A stretch of DNA of 64,000 bases from NCBI GenBank assembly GCA_951406725.2, contig OX597834.1, positions 620,001 to 684,000 on the forward strand. The letters are read 5' to 3'. The position numbers and the translations under genes are program-made. This document shows positions 12,856 to 58,676 of the stretch, piece after piece. The DNA is from Octopus vulgaris. Lineage: Eukaryota. The notes below the pieces were generated by a model, which saw only the letters and a program-made list of their open reading frames with translations, did not search any database and was not told the origin of the DNA. Positions within the stretch are counted from its first letter, which is position 1, and each line of letters opens with the position of its first letter.

Positions 12856-13170
12856 TGGTGGGGAAGTGCGACGACGTTCTTGGGGCGCCGACGAGATCGA
12901 ACTGGCTCGTCTGTTCCGGAGGACTTTCCGGCCGGGAACTATCATGGATGATTTTCAGATGTTCTTGGCCTAGCAGTGCTACCGAGGGGTGTGCTACAGA
13001 TTTGAGATAAACTCTACAGGTATGGATGTTCTGTCAGACGGACTTGTCCGAGGTGCACGCAGAGTGGCAAAACCGTATGGTGCACGCCCTCGTTCAGCGT
13101 CCGGCCATCGCTAACTCGTGGGGTTATGTTGAACAGCTGCTGTCATGTGCGGGATAGATCTGTCTGTTGG
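12856..13170 (+). mobile_element. L1/Tx1-clade LINE ORF2 C-terminal fragment (pseudogenised)
   Basis: Frameshifted translation ELARLFRRTF...QCYRG...DKLYRYG...TCPRC...HALVQRPAIANSWGYVEQLL fits the C-terminal CxxC...HA...W region of L1/Tx1 ORF2. Confidence 0.7.
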
Positions 13171-20087: not shown

Positions 20088-22083
20088 ATATATGTGTGTG
20101 TGTGTACATACATACATGTGTACATACATATGATTATATAGACATATCTACAAATCTTTCTACTCTTATACAGAATGTTAACTGTGGTTGTATTTCCGTT
20201 TGGACAATTGATAATAAAACATATTCCTTTCCATCAAAACTGAAAGAAAGTCGGTTGTAGAATTGGTTCAACCAAAATATTATGAATGAAAAATTTAATT
20301 TCGGTTTGAAATCAGGAATTGCCAAACGGCGTTTTTAACTATAACATTCTACACAAACGTGTAATTGTATTAATACATTTTATAAATGCGCCCGAGTGAA
20401 TAATTTATATAGTTTTAATGAATTCAAGTTATTCTTGAGAACATGAGATATAACGTTCCACTATCGATTATTCAGTATCTTTAGAGACACTTTGGTGGGC
20501 AAATTAAAATATTGGCTCTTATTTCCCACATACATTTGCTCTTGTCTCATCTTTCTTCCATTTTAACTACCAGCTACCCAGAAAACAAGGTACAAATGCT
20601 CTTTCATGGACAAATGGGTTTGTATTTTAGCCTGAAATCGTTAGTTAATGTTCTGTCAAATATTCATAGAGAGTGTGTTTAAGAATTTTATAAAAGACAT
20701 ATCGATACAAATTTTTGTGTTTAGTTCGATGGAAGTGGATGGAATTGAAACTTGAATGCTTAAAATCAGATTATTTACAAAATATTTTAAATAATATATA
20801 TTTGGTTAAATGTCTACCGATCTCTAAAGTGCAATCTGAGAGAAACCGATAGATTGATAAATCGATACGTAGACGGACAGACAGACAGGTAGGTAGGTAG
20901 ACAGATAGACAGGTAGGTAGGTAGGTAGATAGAGAAATTAAAATAAATTAGAAGAGAAAGAGAATGCAATATGAAAGCAAAATATTATAATGCAACAAAG
21001 AATATATATTGACAAAAACTGTTTCTCTAGAATTTAGGAAATTCTTACAAGATACCAGAATATTCTAACAGTGGTAAAATTATTCTTATAGTTTAAAGAA
21101 ATAAACTCTACAAGAGAAATATTCTGAAATTGCCCACAAATGGTGGGAGCACTAACAAATGTCTCCAGATTGACTGTTACTGGCGGGAGAACAAACAAAT
21201 TTCGTTCGATAAAATTTCTTCCTAATAAAATTCCAATATGGCTCATAAGAAATATGCGTCTGTGTTATAAAGGGATTATTTCCTCTTACTTAAATTTTTA
21301 GTAGGAAGAAAGCTCTACAAACTTCTAAGGTAGGTTTGTCCTGAGGATATTGTGTTGCTACACAAAACAATGACCATATCAATCGATCTGTCTATCTATT
21401 TATACACACACACACACACACACACACAAAACAAGACCTATATGCTAACTTCTCTGTATTCTAGGCTGTGTTAAAACCGTCGTATGGGGCATTATTCATT
21501 GCAAATATTAATCGATGTGAATTATTTCCTTCAGCTCCTATCGCAGTATGGAATGGAAAGAAAAGCTGTATCAAGTATAATAATAAAGTTACTTTATTAA
21601 CAAGTATACGAACTACTAATGGAGAATTCTTAAATTTAATATGGTCAGGAATTTGTGGAAATACATAAGACTGTTGCAAATGGCATAGTGAAGAGTTGGT
21701 TATAAAGTAAGGATAGGACGGATCATAGGGAAGAGAGCCAAGGTGTATGTTTAAGCGTTTATTTTGGAAAGAGTTTTATGTAAGGAAAGGGGTTTTATGT
21801 AAAAGGTACATACTGTGGTATCAAATTAGATGTAAGGTTGGATTTAGAATAGATTTGCATGGGTTGGGGATAATACAACATCTGTTTCGGTGGGTGGATT
21901 ATCATATATATCAGAAGAAGAAGAAGAAGGAGGGGGAGGAGAATTATTATTATTATTTGTAGCTAAACTATTAACACACTTTGCAATGTGTAATTATAGC
22001 TGCTCTCTGTCACCTCTTTTCACCCTTTTCAACGAATGCTAGAGCGCTCGAGCATTGTACAATAAGCTGCTGCTGTTGCTGGT

Positions 22084-31376: not shown

Positions 31377-32180
31377 TTAGAAAACAATAGGAAAACCTTC
31401 AAATTTCCATTTGAAATATTTTATAGTTCTGAGTTTTGAATGAATGCAAGAAAAACCTAACTCTAGACGATTATTTAGTAGATTTTTATTTTTTCTATAC
31501 TTTAAAATCTCGTAGGTCTCCATAGAACAGAGTTGACAGCCTACTCTATTATTTCTGTAAGGTATTGCCCTTCTAACTATTTCCCATTTTAGGTTATATT
31601 TAATATTATTAGTTTTGAGTTCCCAAATTTTGCCTTATGATCTAATCGGAAAGAGGAAAGATGATTGTTAATTCTCTGTTTAAAATTAATAGAACAACCG
31701 ATGTAAAAAAAGTTACTATTAGTAGTTATTATTATTCATTTATAGATTACATTTTGGACTGAACAACGACTTGATGCCGGACAATTTGATCTAATCCTAC
31801 AATTGCAACTGGGGGGATAATTTCCAGATTTGGAATCATTTAAGGACAGTTCTCTCACATTGCTGTTATTCAAATTATTATAAATATTATTTTCATTATT
31901 ATAGGTAATATTGTTATCCAAAGTGGGGTTACTATTCATTGATCCATTCACATCTAACATAACAATACCTCTATTATCTACATTATTGATATTGCTGTTA
32001 TTATTATTTGTATTTATATCAAAGTTATTACTGCTATAGATATTATTGCTATCATCATTTTTGGTATTATTTTTATTTATATTATCCCTATTTTTATCAT
32101 TATAATTATTTCTATTAATATTATTGATATTATTATTATTTTTATTTTTGATACTATTATTACAATTATTATTGCTATTC
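31377..32180 (-). pseudogene. Penelope-like element GIY-YIG endonuclease with Asn-rich linker (pseudogenised)
   Basis: CNCRIRSNCPASSRCSVQNVIYK*IIITTNSNFFYIGCSINFKQRINNHLSSFR..., then a frameshift, then WELKTNNIKYNLKWEIVRRAIPY...CQLCSMETYEIL...LLNNRLELGFSCIH. Confidence 0.88.
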
Positions 32181-32228
32181 ATATGTGTATATATATATAT
32201 ATATATGCATTTATATATATATGTATAA

Positions 32229-32272
<44 letters not shown>

Positions 32273-32381
32273 CATACGATATAGTGTGTATTTAAACACG
32301 TAGAGAATCCACTTATAGGGATTCTACGAGCTAGAAAGAACAGCTAAGTTCTATGACCACAAAAATTCGGGATAAAATTCG

Positions 32382-32481: not shown

Positions 32482-35400
32482 TCTCTCTCCGTCTCCCGTC
32501 GCAAGGAAAGAAGGTCTCTCTCCGTCTCCCGTCGCAAGGAAAGAAGGTCTCTCTCCCTCTCCCGTCGCAAGGAAAGAAGGTCTCTCTCCCTCTCCCGTCG
32601 CAAGGAAAGAAGGTCTCTCTCCCTCTCCCGTCGCAAGGAAAGAAGGTCTCTCTCCGTCTCCCGTCGCAAGGAAAGAAGGTCTCTCTCCCTCTCCCGTCGC
32701 AAGGAAAGAAGGTCTCTCTCCCTCTCCCGTCGCAAGGAAAGAAGGTCTCTCTCCTCTCCCGTCGCAAGGAAAGAAGGTCTCTCTCCGTCTCCCGTCGCAA
32801 GGAAAGAAGGTCTCTCTCCCTCTCCCGTCGCAAGGAAAGAAGGTCTCTCTCCGTCTCCCGTCGCAAGGAAAGAAGGTCTCTCTCCCTCTCCCGTCGCAAG
32901 GAAAGAAGGTCTCTCTCCCTCTCCCGTCGCAAGGAAAGAAGGTCTCTCTCCCTCTCCCGTCGCAAGGAAAGAAGGTCTCTCTCCGTCTCCCGTCGCAAGG
33001 AAAGAAGGTCTCTCTCCCTCTCCCGTCGCAAGGAAAGAAGGTCTCTCTCCGTCTCCCGTCGCAAGGAAAGAAGGTCTCTCTCCGTCTCCCGTCGCAAGGA
33101 AAGAAGGTCTCTCTCCCTCTCCCGTCGCAAGGAAAGAAGGTCTCCCGTCGCAAGGAAAGAAGGTCTCCGTCTCCCGTCGCAAGGAAAGAAGGTCTCTCCT
33201 CTCCCGTCGCAAGGAAAGAAGGTCTCTCTCCCTCTCCCGTCGCAAGGAAAGAAGGTCTCTCTCCCTCTCCCGTCGCAAGGAAAGAAGGTCTCTCTCCGTC
33301 TCCCGTCGCAAGGAAAGAAGGTCTCTCTCCCTCTCCCGTCGCAAGGAAAGAAGGTCTCTCTCCGTCTCCCGTCGCAAGGAAAGAAGGTCTCTCTCCGTCT
33401 CCCGTCGCAAGGAAAGAAGGTCTCTCTCCCTCTCCCGTCGCAAGGAAAGAAGGTCTCTCTCCCTCTCCCGTCGCAAGGAAAGAAGGTCTCTCTCCGTCTC
33501 CCGTCGCAAGGAAAGAAGGTCTCTCTCCCTCTCCCGTCGCAAGGAAAGAAGGTCTCTCTCCCTCTCCCGTCGCAAGGAAAGAAGGTCTCTCTCCCTCTCC
33601 CGTCGCAAGGAAAGAAGGTCTCTCTCCGTCTCCCGTCGCAAGGAAAGAAGGTCTCTCTCCCTCTCCCGTCGCAAGGAAAGAAGGTCTCTCTCCCTCTCCC
33701 GTCGCAAGGAAAGAAGGTCTCTCTCCCTCTCCCGTCGCAAGGAAAGAAGGTCTCTCTCCCTCTCCCGTCGCAAGGAAAGAAGGTCTCTCTCCCTCTCCCG
33801 TCGCAAGGAAAGAAGGTCTCTCTCCCTCTCCCGTCGCAAGGAAAGAAGGTCTCTCTCCCTCTCCCGCCGCAAGGAAAGAAGGTCTCTCTCCCTCTCCCGT
33901 CGCAAGGAAAGAAGGTCTCTCTCCCTCTCCCGTCGCAAGGAAAGAAGGTCTCTCTCCCTCTCCCGTCGCAAGGAAAGAAGGTCTCTCTCCCTCTCCCGTC
34001 GCAAGGAAAGAAGGCCTCTCTCCCTCTCCCGTCGCAAGGAAAGAAGGTCTCTCTCTCCCTCTCCCGTCGCAAGGAAAGAAGGTCTCTCTCCCTCTCCCGT
34101 CGCAAGGAAAGAAGGTCTCTCTCTCCCTCTCCCGTCGCAAGGAAAGAAGGTCTCTCTCCCTCTCCCGTCGCAAGGAAAGAAGGCCTCTCTCCCTCTCCCG
34201 TCGCAAGGAAAGAAGGTCTCTCTCTCCCTCTCCCGTCGCAAGGAAAGAAGGTCTCTCTCCCTCTCCCGTCGCAAGGAAAGAAGGTCTCTCTCCCTCTCCC
34301 GTCGCAAGGAAAGAAGGTCTCTCTCCCTCTCCCGTCGCAAGGAAAGAAGGTCTCTCTCCCTCTCCCGTCGCAAGGAAAGAAGGTCTCTCTCCCTCTCCCG
34401 TCGCAAGGAAAGAAGGTCTCTCTCCCTCTCCCGTCGCAAGGAAAGAAGGTCTCTCTCCCTCTCCCGTCGCAAGGAAAGAAGGTCTCTCTCCCTCTCCCGT
34501 CGCAAGGAAAGAAGGTCTCTCTCCCTCTCCCGTCGCAAGGAAAGAAGGTCTCTCTCCCTCTCCCGTCGCAAGGAAAGAAGGCCTCTCCCTCTCCCGTCGC
34601 AAGGAAAGAAGGTCTCTCTCCCTCTCCCGTCGCAAGGAAAGAAGGTCTCTCTCCCTCTCCCGTCGCAAGGAAAGAAGGTCTCTCTCCCTCTCCCGTCGCA
34701 AGGAAAGAAGGTCTCTCTCCCTCTCCCGTCGCAAGGAAAGAAGGTCTCTCTCCCTCTCCCGTCGCAAGGAAAGAAGGTCTCTCTCCCTCTCCCGTCGCAA
34801 GGAAAGAAGGTCTCTCTCCCTCTCCCGTCGCAAGGAAAGAAGGTCTCTCTCTCCCTCTCCCGTCGCAAGGAAAGAAGGTCTCTCTCTCCCTCTCCCGTCG
34901 CAAGGAAAGAAGGTCTCTCTCCCTCTCCCGTCGCAAGGAAAGAAGGTCTCTCTCCCTCTCCCGTCGCAAGGAAAGAAGGTCTCTCTCCCTCTCCCGTCGC
35001 AAGGAAAGAAGGCTCTCTCCCTCTCCCGTCGCAAGGAAAGAAGGTCTCTCTCCCTCTCCCGTCGCAAGGAAAGAAGGTCTCTCTCTCCCTCTCCCGTCGC
35101 AAGGAAAGAAGGTCTCTCTCCCTCTCCCGTCGCAAGGAAAGAAGGCTCTCTCCCTCTCCCGTCGCAAGGAAAGAAGGTCTCTCTCCCTCTCCCGTCGCAA
35201 GGAAAGAAGGTCTCTCTCCCTCTCCCGTCGCAAGGAAAGAAGGTCTCTCTCCCTCTCCCGTCGCAAGGAAAGAAGGTCTCTCTCCCTCTCCCGTCGCAAG
35301 GAAAGAAGGTCTCTCTCCCTCTCCCGTCGCAAGGAAAGAAGGTCTCTCTCTCCCTCTCCCGTCGCAAGGAAAGAAGGCCTCTCTCCCTCTCCCGTCGCAA

Positions 35401-35734
35401 GGAAAGAAGGCCTCTCTCCCTCTCCCGTCGCAAGGAAAGAAGGTCTCTCTCTCCCTCTCCCGTCGCAAGGAAAGAAGGCCTCTCTCCCTCTCCCGTCGCA
35501 AGGAAAGAAGGCCTCTCTCCCTCTCTCGCAAGGAAGAAGGCCCCTCCCTCTCCCGTCGCAAGGAAAGAAGGCCTCTCTCCCTCTCCCGTCGCAAGGAAAG
35601 AAGGTCTCTCTCTCCCTCTCCCGTCGCAAGGAAAGAAGGCCTCTCTCCCTCTCCCGCCGCAAGGAAAGAAGGTCTCTCTCCCTCTCCCGTCGCAAGGAAA
35701 GAAGGTCTCTCTCCCTCTCTCCCTCTCCCGTCGC
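32482..35734. repeat. 33-bp minisatellite array, roughly 100 units (TCTCTCTCCCTCTCCCGTCGCAAGGAAAGAAGG)
   Basis: Direct reading; 11-aa periodicity in overlapping ORFs; 31- and 35-bp variants. Confidence 0.98.
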
Positions 35735-35777
35735 ACTGTAAGATGCGTGTAAGAGTTTATATTATATATATTATATT

Positions 35778-42232: not shown

Positions 42233-42819
42233 GATTGTAACTTCGCTTATGGGGCATTTATCTCCCCTTTCAGTATACCAAAATGCGTTTCCTTGCAGTT
42301 CCAGGAGTTTTAACTTATTTCTAGCAATATTACTGTTACCTAACACATTCAGCCGCATTTAGCGACGATTGGATTTTTCCTTTTTGGTTTTATGTTAGGT
42401 ATTGCTGCCTACATTACAGTACATGCATACATACATACATACATACATACATACATGAATATATGCATATCGTGATTTCTTAAAAGTATAAATTGCATGA
42501 AAATAAGCAGTATTTAGATTTGTGTTTCTGCATATTTCATTTAGAGAAACCACAGTCGCACAGGGACACTCACATACATACATGCATAGATACATATATA
42601 TGTTAGTGAGTGGACAAACGAAAGAAGGGGACTCAACTAACTTATGGGAGGGGCGTTACATGCATGGATCAAAACTGTTTGATTCAAACTCGCTGGTACT
42701 CTTGAGTTTCAAGCGGGATGCTAGTCATCAGCCATTCAAATTCAAAATGGCTGACGTTTGAAACTCAAGAGTTCCAGCGAATTTGAATTAAACTGCTTTA
42801 ATCCATATATATTTTTTTT

Positions 42820-45676: not shown

Positions 45677-45930
45677 GACGGTATGTGCATTTCTGATCAC
45701 GAGCAGAAGTAGTGGGAGAGCATCATAATCAGGTGTTGAAAGAAATTCTTTGGAGTTTGAATATTTCACCTCTGGAAACGCGGGCCCCACCAGCAAGGTC
45801 ATGCAGTGTTTATCTTCATATGAGCTCACCATGTCGTGCACATACGGGTGTGATGCATTCGCCTGGTGCACCCTTATCAAACGGTTAGTCCTGACGGGTA
45901 TATTGGGCTTCGTATATTCGTGCCCCTATA
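45677..45930 (+). mobile_element. Dispersed repeat / SINE-like family D (internally deleted copy)
   Basis: Aligns with 60920-61298 (ccaccagcaaggt..., gatgcat..gcctggtg.accc.tatca.acg...ctgggcttcg); ends in AAT. Confidence 0.75.
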
Positions 45931-45949
45931 ATAAAAATAATAATAATAT

Positions 45950-46395
45950 TACAAACCAATGTGACTCCTTTATCAAGGCTCGGAGACCAGATATTGTTGC
46001 GGTAGATAAAGGAAAAAGGAAACCAAGATTAGAGATACCCGAGGATTCACGCACGAGTGACGCAGAACTGGAAAAGACTATTAAAAGACGAAATTTCAAG
46101 AGTATGAGGAGAGTGTCTGTCATTGCAGTAGTTGTAGGGTCACTCGGAGCACTAAGAACGAATTTCGAGAAATATGTCAAAGAAATGGAATTGGCATGAG
46201 AGCAGAGCAAGCCCAAAAACCTGCTCTTCTGGGGACAGCTAGGATTTTCAGATTGGTACTTGGATGTTGAATGTCTAGCACGATAATTAACAACCAAGTA
46301 TCAAAGCTTATAATGTGCGGAAAAAAATCCTGTCAAACCTCTGTCCCTTCTCATAGAACCTACCAAAACAAACAAGACCGAGCATTCTGAGAAGT
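45950..46395 (+). mobile_element. R4/Dong-like LINE 3' fragment (REL endonuclease)
   Basis: CDSFIKARRPDIVAVDK...IPEDSR...ELEK...VIAVVVGSLG...AQKPALLGTARIFRLVLGC*; AAT/AAC flanks. Confidence 0.88.
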
Positions 46396-56068: not shown

Positions 56069-56109
56069 ACTAGCATTATGACACGGCATTGCCGGGTCAT
56101 AGTGCTAGT
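56069..56109. other. 41-nt hairpin with ACTAG/CTAGT ends, Helitron-terminus-like
   Basis: actagcattatgacacggca-t-tgccgggtcatagtgctagt directly after (TA)n. Confidence 0.55.
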
Positions 56110-56318
56110 TTGGTATAAATGTAAATAAAAAATTTAGGGTAATAAAACATACAATGACATATTAAAAAGACGAATTAAAATTCCAGAGAAAAATACAGAA
56201 AAGATAAATATACAAATTTACAAAAATGCATAAAAATGCACCAATTAATATGAAACATATCATATATTTAAAATTGACACTCCCCTCGTCAGGATGTTTT
56301 TTTACACACAACACATCG

Positions 56319-57924
56319 TTTCTTTATTACCCATAAAGGGCTACACAGAGGGGACAATACAAACATTGGGGATATAAAATATTACAATTACATAAATATG
56401 GAAAATGAAATATGAAAATGAAAAGTGAAAGTGATGCTAACGGCCCCATCCGCTAGCATCACTTACCTGTCCTTCATACTTTATCCTGAATGTAATACAC
56501 ATTGTGCTCTATTTTCATCTCAAATCTCTTTTCCATTTCTGTTATTATCTCGTCATCTATTTCAAATCTAAACAATTTATAGTTTTTCTTTTTACATTTT
56601 TCCACGAATTCTTCCATACGTTCTTCCGAGATTACAGCGTACCTATCACTGTCCTTGTCACACCAGTGATAGTCTTTCAATATTTCTTTTACGTCTTTTT
56701 CCCTCGAAATACCTAGAAAATTGGGCCTAGGTTTTTTTTGCGGTATCTTGTCTGTTTGCTTCTTTTTTTTGTTTTCTTGTTGGTGGGGAGCGGGTGGGCT
56801 CACCGTCTGCAGGGGAAGGGTGGATCACGGAGGGTGCGGGTGGTGTTGGGGTGGATTGGGGTTCAGCACTATTTATTTTTTCCTTCTTTTCCTCCTTCTT
56901 CTGCCTTCTTCCCATTCTTTTTGTACCTCCTCCTCTTCCGTTGTGACATTCTCCGTTGATTTCTGCTCTTCCTCGTTGGCCACTACCTCTCTTTGAGGTT
57001 TCGCATCAATTTCCTTTGATGGGGGAGGGCAGTTAGCTCTTATGTGACCTTTCAGGCCACACTTGTAGCAGCGTGGAGCTCTGCCCTCCACCCACACTCT
57101 CATAATAACACTTCCCGTTCTGATATTCTCAGTCAATTGTTCCAATATTTTAGCTTCAGCTTGCAAGTTTAATTCCAAAACTGCACCCTTCCAGCCTCCT
57201 TCATCTTTCACTGTAGCATGGAGGATGTCAACTTCTTCCTCACATCCACTGATTACGGCTGCCACTATCCACCCTCCGTCAACATTAGGAGGTATCCCCT
57301 CCACCCAGATATGAGGGCAGAAGGAACACCTTTTCTGTCTTCACCGTTCTCGCTGCCATTTTCCTCGCCACACTTTCATTCTTGAATTGGATCTCCACGG
57401 TACCGAAACTTATGCCTCTTGCCAAGAATATTATGTCTTCTTCCGTTCTTTTTAATGCTTCTTCTATTGTTTCCATACCGACGACTTCTGTTTTCTTTTT
57501 TCCATTGGCTTAAACCCGGCACGTGATGGTCCTTCGTCCATGCCACTCTCCTCGTTTTGGTGGCGGTGACAACTCCACTTCACCGCCGACCTTTTTAATA
57601 ATTGCCTGGTAGCTTGGCAACTTGGCCAAGTCTATTTCTCTTTCCTCCGTTCTTGTCGCTCCTGCGTATGTGTTGCCTAATTGCTTGTCCATTTTCTTTA
57701 TCGCCTTTCCAAGTTCTTCTTCAGAAGTCGATAAATCCGACACACTTTCGTACATACTTCTTCTGGCCATCCCTCCCTTAGGGAGGGGCAGCCCACTTCT
57801 TCCTTATCTGTCTCAACACAGACAGACAAAAACCCAAAAAGCCGTGTAACAATAACGTTTAATGATAAAAATTATCAATCAACAATTAAACAGCAACTCA
57901 CAGGTTCAAATAAGAAGCACAATA
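56319..57924 (-). mobile_element. ORF1-only non-LTR retroposon (HAL1-like) with 15-bp TSD
   Basis: TSD acacacaacacatcg (56304-56318) / acacacaacacatag (57925-57939); single gag-like ORF; 3' hairpin, U-rich UTR and AATAAA; no ORF2. Confidence 0.8.
56474..57770 (-). pseudogene. L1/Tx1-type ORF1 (gag-like) with CCHC zinc knuckle, disrupted by one stop and frameshifts
   Basis: Track ORFs 57510-57770, 57285-57476, 56873-57304 and 56474-56803 join into about 430 aa; RVWVEGRAPRCYKCGLKGHIRANCP; basic RRRRKR patch. Confidence 0.85.
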
Positions 57925-58369
57925 ACACACAACACATAGCACACGGAAACAAATGCACAATTACATACCTGCTACATGCGAAAGACCAGACATTACGTAC
58001 TCCCAAAAATTCTCATAGATACTGAATGCTACTTTATAAGCATATAATTCAATCTAGCAGCTATAGTAACTGGACTAATTCACTTCTGCACTCAATTAAA
58101 TTTTTTCATCTTTTAATTTCTCCCATTCATGCAAAGCCACATATTCGAGTTCAAGTCCTTGATACATTTTATACTAATTGCTATTTTTTCTTTTAATTGT
58201 TATATTTCGATTTAATTACCATTTTAATAAAATAAAATATATTTAATTACTACTTACTGTATTTAATTCAATTATTATTATTACCTCTAACTTTTATTGC
58301 AATTTTTATTTCTAAATTGCATATGGAATATATGCGTACAATATATTTTTATATGATGTTTATATATTT

Positions 58370-58674
58370 ATCACGTGATCACGTGACCGACCAGATCATC
58401 AGACGTTGTTACACATCGCTGGTCACAATGCGTTCGCATTGCTTTAGCCTTCTATGACGCCACCCCGCTGGCTAAGCGAGCAGGCCAACAGAAGAAAGAG
58501 TGGGAGAAAGAGTGGTGAAAGAGTACAGCAGGGATCACCACCCCCTGCCGGAGCCTCGTGGAGCTTTTAGGTGTTTTCGCTCAATAAACACTCACAACGC
58601 CCGGTCTGGGAATCGAAACCGCAATCCTATGACCACGAGTCCGCTGCCCTAACTACTGGGCCATTGCGCCTCCA

Positions 58675-58676
<2 letters not shown>
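58370..58676 (-). mobile_element. tRNA-derived SINE with RTE-derived 3' tail
   Basis: Head gtggaggcgcaatggcccagtagttagggcagc...ggtttcgattccc; tail similar to the RTE end at 40710-40770; terminal (cacgtgat) repeats. Confidence 0.85.

What the first reader, a model, noticed from the sequence alone, without database searches (positions are those of the whole stretch)
56304..57939. Complete ORF1-only retroposon (HAL1-like 'half-LINE') with TSD, zinc knuckle and 3' hairpin
Seen: a 1.6 kb minus-strand unit bounded by a 15-bp direct repeat with 1 mismatch. It has about 150 nt of leader and one ~430-aa gag-like ORF (RRM-like region, CX2CX4HX4C knuckle, acidic/basic/Pro-rich linker, then a distinct ~80-aa C-terminal domain), followed directly by a hairpin, a U-rich UTR and AATAAAGAAA. 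No endonuclease or RT is present. Established: target-primed reverse transcription truncates from the 5' end and so loses ORF1 first; ORF1-only elements with TSDs are known as HAL1, mainly in mammals and sporadically elsewhere. Inference: this is a cephalopod family that keeps its own RNA chaperone and borrows L1/Tx1 ORF2 in trans. L1/Tx1 ORF2 remnants occur at 12856-13170.
Basis: partly seen in the sequence, partly recalled or inferred. Interest (0 to 1): 0.8.

Follow-up and report, generated by a model that had tools for sequence, protein, structure and literature searches.

The report
Octopus ORF1-only retroposon, decayed copy
A 1.6-kb jumping-gene copy in an octopus-type genome carries only a broken RNA-binding gene and no copying enzyme, and related copies share this layout, so it likely belongs to a family that borrows the enzyme from a full-length LINE, a kind already known from mammals and insects.

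Summary
The insertion is real. A 1.6-kb minus-strand unit lies between 13-bp exact (15-bp, one mismatch) repeats, and contigs of 4 of 4 runs laid show the empty site. It encodes no endonuclease or RT. Relatives are open at three of these four breaks. The protein is a type I LINE ORF1p: a model of a homologue shows two RRM-like domains, followed by one CCHC knuckle. All 12 species-named homologues of 30 looked up are Octopus. Contigs about 98% and about 84% alike carry the same C-terminal-domain/stop/hairpin junction, so this is a family, not a one-off deletion. Tail, knuckle, Pro-rich block and hairpin are shared with far more abundant relatives whose linker and C-terminal domain differ. Best reading: a HAL1-like ORF1-only retroposon mobilised in trans, likely by an L1/Tx1 ORF2p. 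The partner was not found, and no dN/dS could be run. The kind is known (HAL1, HeT-A, Ag-Sponge); my searches found no cephalopod example in print.

The parts
57925..57939 (-). 5' copy of the target-site duplication (13 bp exact at 57925-57937; 15 bp with one mismatch)
   Evidence: empty-site joints 56302->57925 in X1 (4 contigs), X13 (1), X4 (2), X5 (3)
57771..57924 (-). 154-nt U-rich 5' leader (internal promoter inferred, untested)
57510..57770 (-). ORF1 piece 1: N-terminal region, ends in a premature stop at 57512-57510
   Evidence: a sense codon is read there in most laid contig depth of all four runs (table 3); weak match to P0006
57300..57509 (-). ORF1 piece 2: first RRM-like domain, cut at its end by a 23-nt deletion near 57300
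   Evidence: 14 homologue matches; model of homologue P0108; X4 record 20 has 23 extra letters in 57198-57462
57074..57299 (-). ORF1 piece 3a: second RRM/ferredoxin-like domain
   Evidence: 53 of 150 listed hits match this part alone
57026..57073 (-). single CX2CX4HX4C zinc knuckle
   Evidence: Pfam PF00098 E 2.9e-4; high-depth shared module
56865..57025 (-). variable acidic/basic linker, with a frameshift in an A-run near 56880
   Evidence: joints 56865->57052, 56866->57007 and 56874->57021 show it replaced in relatives
56764..56864 (-). Pro-rich block conserved at DNA level across subfamilies; G-rich (G4-type motif at 56832-56861) on the + strand
   Evidence: loose ends at 56763 and 56864; 25 of 33 residues identical to P0003
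56474..56734 (-). C-terminal domain (~86 aa) ending in TGA at 56476-56474; subfamily-specific; extra base in the A-run near 56732
   Evidence: fold unresolved (pLDDT 48); no family hit
56429..56464 (-). 15-bp hairpin with a 6-nt loop; its 5' arm holds an overlapping stop/start TGATG (56461-56457)
   Evidence: shared module
56317..56428 (-). U-rich 3' UTR, weak terminal stem-loop (56349-56321) and AATAAAGAAA end (56328-56319); no poly(A)
   Evidence: terminal stem-loop z -2.0, 7 of 200 shuffles as stable; highest depth bin
56304..56318 (-). 3' copy of the target-site duplication
57940..58340 (.). host repeat (AT-rich, multi-copy, unclassified), part upstream of the insertion
   Evidence: contig depth well above single-contig depth, and empty-site joints to 56301-56314
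56110..56303 (.). host repeat, part downstream of the insertion

Best explanation
This is a full-length but decayed copy of an octopus family of 1.6-kb retroposons that encode only a type I LINE ORF1 protein (two predicted RRM-like domains, one CCHC knuckle, a variable C-terminal domain) and are likely copied in trans by the ORF2p of an autonomous LINE, most likely of the L1/Tx1 group. Shown: the insertion with a 13-15-bp duplication into a host repeat, the absence of EN and RT, the shared junction in other copies, and the decay of this copy. Inferred: Pol II transcription from the leader; the master's ORF1p coats its own RNA; a borrowed ORF2p recognises the conserved 3' tail and primes reverse transcription at a nick. 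Because the unit is short, copies would often come out full length. The family likely arose by internal loss of ORF2. The stop/start overlap plus hairpin at the end of the ORF may be a relic of the parent's ORF1-ORF2 junction (speculative).
For: Empty site: joints 56302->57925 in 4 of 4 runs, plus 56301->57925, 56302->57928 and 56314->57941. Shared junction: X4 record 17 (56447-56762, 7 substitutions + 1 gap, 27 letters past the junction) and X1 record 1 (56441-56763, 45 substitutions + 6 gap letters, about 84% alike, just over 31 letters past it) run from the C-terminal domain through the stop into the hairpin. The best-supported loose ends just 3' of the hairpin (56426 in X1 and X4, 56402 in X5) are U-rich on the element strand, not coding, and joint 56363->56426 links hairpin to tail. 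Loose ends just 5' of the hairpin, read by hand from 30-letter consensus ends, are open in one frame in 4 of 4 runs. They end E-[NK]-Q-R-T-G-K-stop, and the X4 one repeats the window's N-V-Y at the same offset, so they look like other C-terminal domains. Frame kept in diverged copies: 15 of 18 listed ORF-region contig pieces with 20 or more substitutions have gap totals of 0 or a multiple of 3 (some are the same locus in two runs). Protein: 239 hits at E<=0.001, 21 at 1e-10 (many are unrelated multi-knuckle proteins); model pLDDT 83.5, top Foldseek hits tandem-RRM proteins; Atlas neighbours are CCHC proteins and ZCCHC3-type RBD clusters at 0.90-0.92. RRM+CCHC ORF1 variants in non-mammalian animals are described as consistent with Tx1 (PMC5203782). 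L1-Tx1 has 13 recently active families in O. vulgaris (PMC13282606).
Against: No autonomous partner sharing the tail was seen; no genome is held, and the window's ORF2 remnant lacks the tail. There is no poly(A), and the duplication does not start with the A-run typical of mammalian L1 targets (recalled). Type I ORF1s occur in several other clades (PMC4120745). The protein homologues have no DNA context, so some may be ORF1s of autonomous LINEs. Only two listed contig pieces reach the hairpin from the C-terminal domain, and only one passes the 31-letter rule. Tables were cut (884 loose ends, 3921 pieces, 30 joints not shown). One relative (X13 record 12) also lacks the 23 nt, so not every copy is coding-competent. 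No dN/dS was possible; the 29 variants classed were 24 non-synonymous, 1 stop and 4 synonymous, which reflects decay of single copies rather than selection on masters.
Confidence: 0.62

Rival explanations
1. The same ORF1-only element, but derived from and mobilised by a LINE outside L1/Tx1 (I/Jockey/R1, L2, CR1, RTE or Dong-R4).
For: Type I ORF1 is reported in I, Jockey, R1, Tad1, plant L1, L2 and CR1 subgroup 3 (PMC4120745). RTE, Dong-R4 and CR1 are all recently active in O. vulgaris. No partner was identified, and there is no poly(A).
Against: The type I ORF1s of Jockey, L2 and CR1 in that paper have three knuckles where the count is given; this one has one. The octopus RTE elements have a single ORF (PMC9115989). 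Atlas neighbours include ZCCHC3-type RBD clusters, which I recall as Tx1-ORF1-like (not confirmed; search found no paper).
Confidence: 0.17
2. The unit is a retrocopy of a short transcript of an autonomous LINE in which ORF2 lies downstream of the AATAAA; transcripts ending early are copied by the element's own ORF2p, so no independent family exists.
For: The unit ends at a polyadenylation-like signal. No loose ends beyond 56317 were listed, so what follows the tail in other copies was not seen.
Against: There is no poly(A) in this copy. The tail bin is the deepest of the stretch, as for a true element 3' end (depth is only a hint). A 143-nt U-rich spacer with a terminal stem-loop looks like a 3' UTR.
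Confidence: 0.1
3. A one-off internal deletion of ORF2 in this single copy, during or after insertion.
For: This copy has suffered at least one other deletion, at a 7-nt microhomology near 57300.
Against: The same C-terminal-domain/hairpin junction stands in contigs at about 98% and about 84% identity in different runs.
Confidence: 0.04
4. A processed pseudogene of a host gene family domesticated from ORF1 (in the manner of L1TD1 or ZCCHC3).
For: Several homologues are annotated as Octopus genes. ZCCHC3-type clusters are Atlas neighbours.
Against: There are dozens of lineages at a median 30% core identity, mostly short or broken gene models. DNA modules are shared at very high depth. There is no poly(A). 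One homologue sits inside a Helitron gene model (P0087).
Confidence: 0.04
5. A gag remnant of an LTR or DIRS-type element.
For: The CCHC knuckle matches nucleocapsid knuckles.
Against: No long terminal repeats. The folded core is two RRM-like domains. The 13-15-bp duplication and LINE-like 3' end do not fit.
Confidence: 0.02

Closest known systems
HAL1 (half-L1) of mammals
   Same: Non-autonomous LINE derivative that encodes only ORF1p; arose several times (PMC5753468 passages); ORF1 coding kept for 29-44 Myr in guinea pig (PMC3627910 passage); TSD-bounded.
   Different: ORF1p here is type I (RRM-RRM-CCHC plus an extra variable C-terminal domain), not the coiled-coil/RRM/CTD type of mammalian L1; no poly(A); cephalopod host; parent LINE not identified. 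The original HAL1 paper (PMC2923044) was not held.
HeT-A (Drosophila, Jockey-derived)
   Same: ORF1-only, with an RRM+CCHC-type ORF1 lineage; depends on another element's RT (PMC5786205 passage).
   Different: HeT-A is telomere-specific (PMC5537684, search listing only); this copy is interstitial with a TSD. One knuckle here against three in Jockey-lineage ORF1s.
Ag-Sponge (Anopheles, CR1-derived)
   Same: ORF1-present bipartite non-autonomous LINE made by internal deletion.
   Different: CR1-derived; no sequence comparison was made here.
Tx1-clade LINE ORF1 (type I ORF1p variants)
   Same: RRM + CCHC organisation in non-mammalian animals (PMC5203782); Tx1 elements often insert in other repeats (PMC4494074), as this copy did.
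   Different: No ORF2; target specificity not shown, since the tail is far more abundant than this host repeat.

Membership tests
ORF1-present non-autonomous LINE (HAL1/HeT-A/Ag-Sponge kind) | Encodes an ORF1p and no EN/RT between true element ends | tested here: met
   ends fixed by TSD and empty site
ORF1-present non-autonomous LINE (HAL1/HeT-A/Ag-Sponge kind) | Multi-copy, with the ORF1-3' junction shared between copies | tested here: met
   X4 record 17 (about 98%) and X1 record 1 (about 84%); only the latter passes the 31-letter bridging rule
ORF1-present non-autonomous LINE (HAL1/HeT-A/Ag-Sponge kind) | Distinct TSDs at several loci | not testable with these tools
   no genome held; contigs break at repeat ends
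ORF1-present non-autonomous LINE (HAL1/HeT-A/Ag-Sponge kind) | 3' end shared with an autonomous LINE | tested here: inconclusive
   tail is very abundant, but no RT-bearing holder was seen
ORF1-present non-autonomous LINE (HAL1/HeT-A/Ag-Sponge kind) | ORF1 kept by purifying selection | tested here: inconclusive
   15 of 18 diverged pieces frame-preserving; no dN/dS; this copy is dead
Mammalian HAL1 proper | ORF1p of L1 type II (Transposase_22) | tested here: not met
   RRM-RRM-CCHC fold; Transposase_22 not among the Pfam hits shown for window pieces or alignment members
Mammalian HAL1 proper | Poly(A) tail as in L1 (recalled for HAL1) | tested here: not met
   unit ends AATAAAGAAA directly before the TSD
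Type I LINE ORF1p | At least one RRM immediately upstream of a CCHC knuckle | tested here: met
   predicted on homologue P0108 with 56-row alignment A1; Foldseek best E 1.1e-5 to tandem RRMs; VIA Z up to 9.1; knuckle in window
L1/Tx1 clade | RT phylogeny | not testable with these tools
   the element has no RT and the partner was not found
HeT-A | Telomere-specific arrays; three-knuckle Jockey ORF1 | tested here: not met
   single interstitial insertion with TSD; one knuckle
LTR retrotransposon gag remnant | Long terminal repeats | tested here: not met
   longest end-to-end direct repeat is the 13-bp TSD

The most novel reading that the evidence does not exclude
Octopus genomes hold an old, large radiation of ORF1-only retroposons: dozens of lineages at about 30% protein identity, together perhaps a thousand or more copies. 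They keep fixed DNA blocks (knuckle, Pro-rich block, stop-codon hairpin, 3' tail) while replacing or rapidly evolving the linker and an unknown C-terminal domain between them. This would be a long-lived protein-coding parasite of LINEs with a cassette-like effector domain, far more diverse than mammalian HAL1.
Probability: 0.3. Interest if true: 0.7.

Novelty: new member of a known kind. Interest (0 to 1): 0.45.

Why it matters
ORF1-present non-autonomous LINEs are known from few lineages (L1-derived HAL1, Jockey-derived HeT-A, CR1-derived Ag-Sponge; PMC5786205). An octopus family would add a mollusc case and probably a Tx1-type parent. It would support the idea that keeping one's own RNA chaperone is a repeatable strategy. 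It also matters for annotation: many 'CCHC-type domain-containing' or misnamed Octopus gene models are probably such elements, and RT-based LINE surveys miss them. If the C-terminal domain really is swapped or fast-evolving between fixed DNA blocks, it points to a host or partner conflict worth testing.

Tried and rejected
No whole genome is held, so the BLASTN-and-consensus test could not be run. No second copy lies in the window. Word-index protein searches were blank: knuckle piece, C-terminal domain, and alignment A1 among 1092-3115-aa proteins. These are weak negatives. No EN or RT Pfam family appeared on the 19 + 66 search hits scanned; this is nearly uninformative because ORF1 and ORF2 are separate ORFs. 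C-terminal domain: Atlas scores were 0.85 or less and phage-like (rejected). The single-sequence model had pLDDT 48 and was not fold-searched. It showed no similarity to homologue tails by phmmer or BLASTP, so its fold is unresolved. Logan contigs encoding homologues are 2.3 kb or shorter in 12 of 13 clusters; this fits 1.6-2-kb elements, but such contigs are short anyway, so I did not count it. No RNA holder was listed, and X13 is only guessed to be RNA, so expression is not shown. The search for related loci could not use A1. A tail-motif scan gave one chance match in an unrelated prokaryote-like contig, L001, and none in viral contigs. Rfam gave only sub-threshold miRNA matches on flanking microsatellite. 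No significant fold was found for the Pro-rich block on the sense strand (z -0.4). Target-site specificity for the host repeat was considered and is not supported, as tail depth far exceeds flank depth. Contig depth was used only as a hint, since the tool warns it is no copy number. No paper linking ZCCHC3 to Tx1 ORF1 was found. Earlier scan notes by sequence, by cephalopod words and by place were empty.

Full report
1. Observation. On the minus strand the unit runs from 57924 to 56317 (1608 nt), between two exact 13-mers at 57925-57937 and 56304-56316. With two more bases the repeat is 15 bp with one mismatch. Such a match at this spacing occurred in 7 of 2848 control positions, and 2 of 2184 outside microsatellites. 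Leader (154 nt), knuckle, hairpin (z -5.7), U-rich UTR and AATAAAGAAA are as described, and no EN or RT lies inside. The claimed single ORF is not intact. ATG 57770 to TGA 56474 spans 1297 nt in five pieces, with a stop at 57512-57510 and frameshifts near 57300, 56880 and 56732. There is no poly(A).

2. Insertion. No genome is held, so I laid contigs of 4 of the 24 listed public runs on 56080-58340 at 80% likeness. All four show a joint from 56302 to 57925, with 4, 1, 2 and 3 contigs, and further joints fall within a few bases. The site without the element exists and holds about one copy of the repeat. The flanks are themselves a multi-copy repeat, so these empty sites are probably paralogous copies of the host repeat, not proven orthologues. 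No run held more than 0.43 of the words, so this exact locus was not found near-identical in any listed run.

3. Family. Seven listed high-depth pieces differ from the window by about 1-2.5% (31 substitutions in about 1750 letters, my sum; pieces overlap between runs). Others differ by 15-19% (table 8). At 0.0036 per Myr, the rate used in PMC13282606, 2% is roughly 5 Myr; this is a rough inference. Most laid depth reads a sense codon at the window's stop. Contigs in all four runs lack the extra base at 56732, and X4 record 20 has 23 more letters across 57300, where the window has a 7-nt microhomology. No listed row addressed the break near 56880. The junction from C-terminal domain through stop into hairpin is carried by X4 record 17 (about 98%, 27 letters past the junction) and X1 record 1 (about 84%, passes the 31-letter rule). 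Of 18 listed ORF-region pieces with 20 or more substitutions, 15 have gap totals of 0 or a multiple of 3, and 9 have none. This suggests frame-keeping in relatives, though some pieces are one locus seen in two runs and 3921 pieces were not shown. The 29 variants I classed are mostly non-synonymous, as expected for decay of single copies.

4. Modules. Depth is very uneven (table 2; a hint only, not a copy number). In X1, X4 and X5 the C-terminal-domain bins stand at about 140-150, 57-62 and 550-575, against single-contig depths of about 10-22, 4-14 and 42-65. The knuckle bin stands at 20,993, 5,389 and 70,674, and the tail bin at 42,497, 16,873 and 114,955. The tail bin includes the TG-rich TSD and may be inflated. 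Loose ends and joints cluster at 57070, 57020, 56864, 56763, 56474 and 56426. So relatives share knuckle, Pro-rich block, hairpin and tail, while linker and C-terminal domain differ. Joints 56474->56765 and 56475->56764 put the Pro-rich block and the hairpin on one contig with an unknown stretch between. Read by hand, the loose ends 5' of the hairpin are open in 4 of 4 runs and end E-[NK]-Q-R-T-G-K-stop at the TGA inside the hairpin arm (56461-56459). One repeats the window's N-V-Y. Those 3' of the hairpin are U-rich. Both fit ORF1-only relatives. Ten residues cannot exclude that some are ORF2 ends.

5. Protein. phmmer with the middle piece gave 239 hits at E<=0.001. Of the 150 listed, 53 match the RRM part alone; the rest are mostly knuckle-only matches. 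Of 30 proteins looked up, 12 carry a species name and all are Octopus (sinensis, bimaculoides, vulgaris); 18 have none. Median core identity among 54 rows is 30%, and the window's nearest row is P0003 (59%, support 100/98; 96 columns only). An AlphaFold2 model of homologue P0108 (pLDDT 83.5) has two beta-alpha-beta-beta-alpha-beta domains. They match tandem-RRM proteins by Foldseek (best E 1.1e-5) and RRM/ferredoxin-like folds by VIA-align (Z up to 9.1). This is type I ORF1p as defined in PMC4120745 and PMC5203782 (passages). The C-terminal domain stays unexplained.

6. Mechanism. Shown: insertion with duplication, no enzyme, shared junction, decay of this copy. Inferred: an ORF1-coding master is transcribed, packages its RNA with its own ORF1p, and is reverse-transcribed at the target by a borrowed ORF2p that recognises the conserved tail. 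L1/Tx1 is the most likely donor, given the single knuckle, the clear 13-15-bp duplication, the ZCCHC3-type neighbours and recent L1-Tx1 activity in O. vulgaris. It is not shown: the remnant at 12856-13170 does not share the tail and gave no Pfam hit. The TGATG overlap followed by a stem-loop resembles the UAAUG plus downstream structure that couples ORF1 and ORF2 in SART1 (PMC3894237 passage). It may be a relic of the parent's junction; this is untested.

7. Known systems. It works like HAL1, HeT-A and Ag-Sponge (PMC5786205, PMC5753468, PMC3627910, PMC3414825; passages). It is not a member of mammalian HAL1 (wrong ORF1 type, no poly(A)) or of HeT-A. Searches listed no paper on ORF1-only elements in cephalopods. 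PMC13282606 (parts 1-2 of 3 read; its one supplementary file searched) does not mention them. Term searches of PMC10294476, PMC8967140 and PMC9115989 found no such passage. I could not see Bao and Jurka 2010, Repbase, Dfam or that paper's Zenodo library, any of which may already list such a family. Four unchecked earlier notes of this scan report ORF1-only elements in other genomes, so the kind seems to recur.

8. Verdict. Observation partly confirmed, interpretation partly supported. This is a new member of a known kind, interest 0.45. The larger claim, an old modular radiation of ORF1-only elements in octopus, has about 0.3 probability and would deserve 0.7.

Noticed in passing
window 57079-57601 and 57776-57954 (run X13, records 12 and 15): One contig lacks the same 23 nt as the window but not its stop. 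Another runs 30 nt past the element's 5' end into the same flank. Both are 4-5% diverged; probably the orthologous filled site in a related lineage.
   Followed up: partly
window 56461-56429 (minus): Stop/start overlap TGATG in the 5' arm of the hairpin. Relatives appear to end their ORF at this stop, five codons after the window's; possible relic ORF1-ORF2 coupling site.
   Followed up: partly
window 56764-56864: The Pro-rich block is more conserved (DNA modules; 76% to P0003) than the domains around it, and has a G4-type motif on the + strand (56832-56861); it may be a cis element.
   Followed up: partly
protein P0087: Gene model in which a family ORF lies between Helitron_like_N and PIF1 domains, with no RT domain; possibly an independent insertion into a Helitron.
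   Followed up: no
protein P0111: A family fragment is fused to the start of a SNF2/GRF-zinc-finger gene model; likely an annotation merge or an exonised copy.
   Followed up: no
window 56069-56109: Near-perfect 41-nt palindrome with CTAG at both ends (z -9.3), resembling Helitron 3' ends on both strands (resemblance recalled).
   Followed up: partly
window 56110-56303 and 57940-58340: The unclassified AT-rich host repeat is relatively much deeper in runs X4 and X5 than in X1, hinting at a lineage-specific expansion.
   Followed up: no
window 58370-58676 (minus): Sequence that looks like a tRNA-derived SINE just upstream of the host repeat (by eye).
   Followed up: no
window 32482-35743: 3.2-kb array of a ~33-bp satellite next to a 100-N gap, giving long open frames in all six frames.
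   Followed up: no
window 45729-46300: Degenerate frames that read like the C-terminal nuclease region of an RLE-type LINE (motif recognised from memory).
   Followed up: no
window 31736-32323 (minus): Asn-rich frame ending in a Cys-rich motif reminiscent of Penelope-like element remnants (by eye).
   Followed up: no
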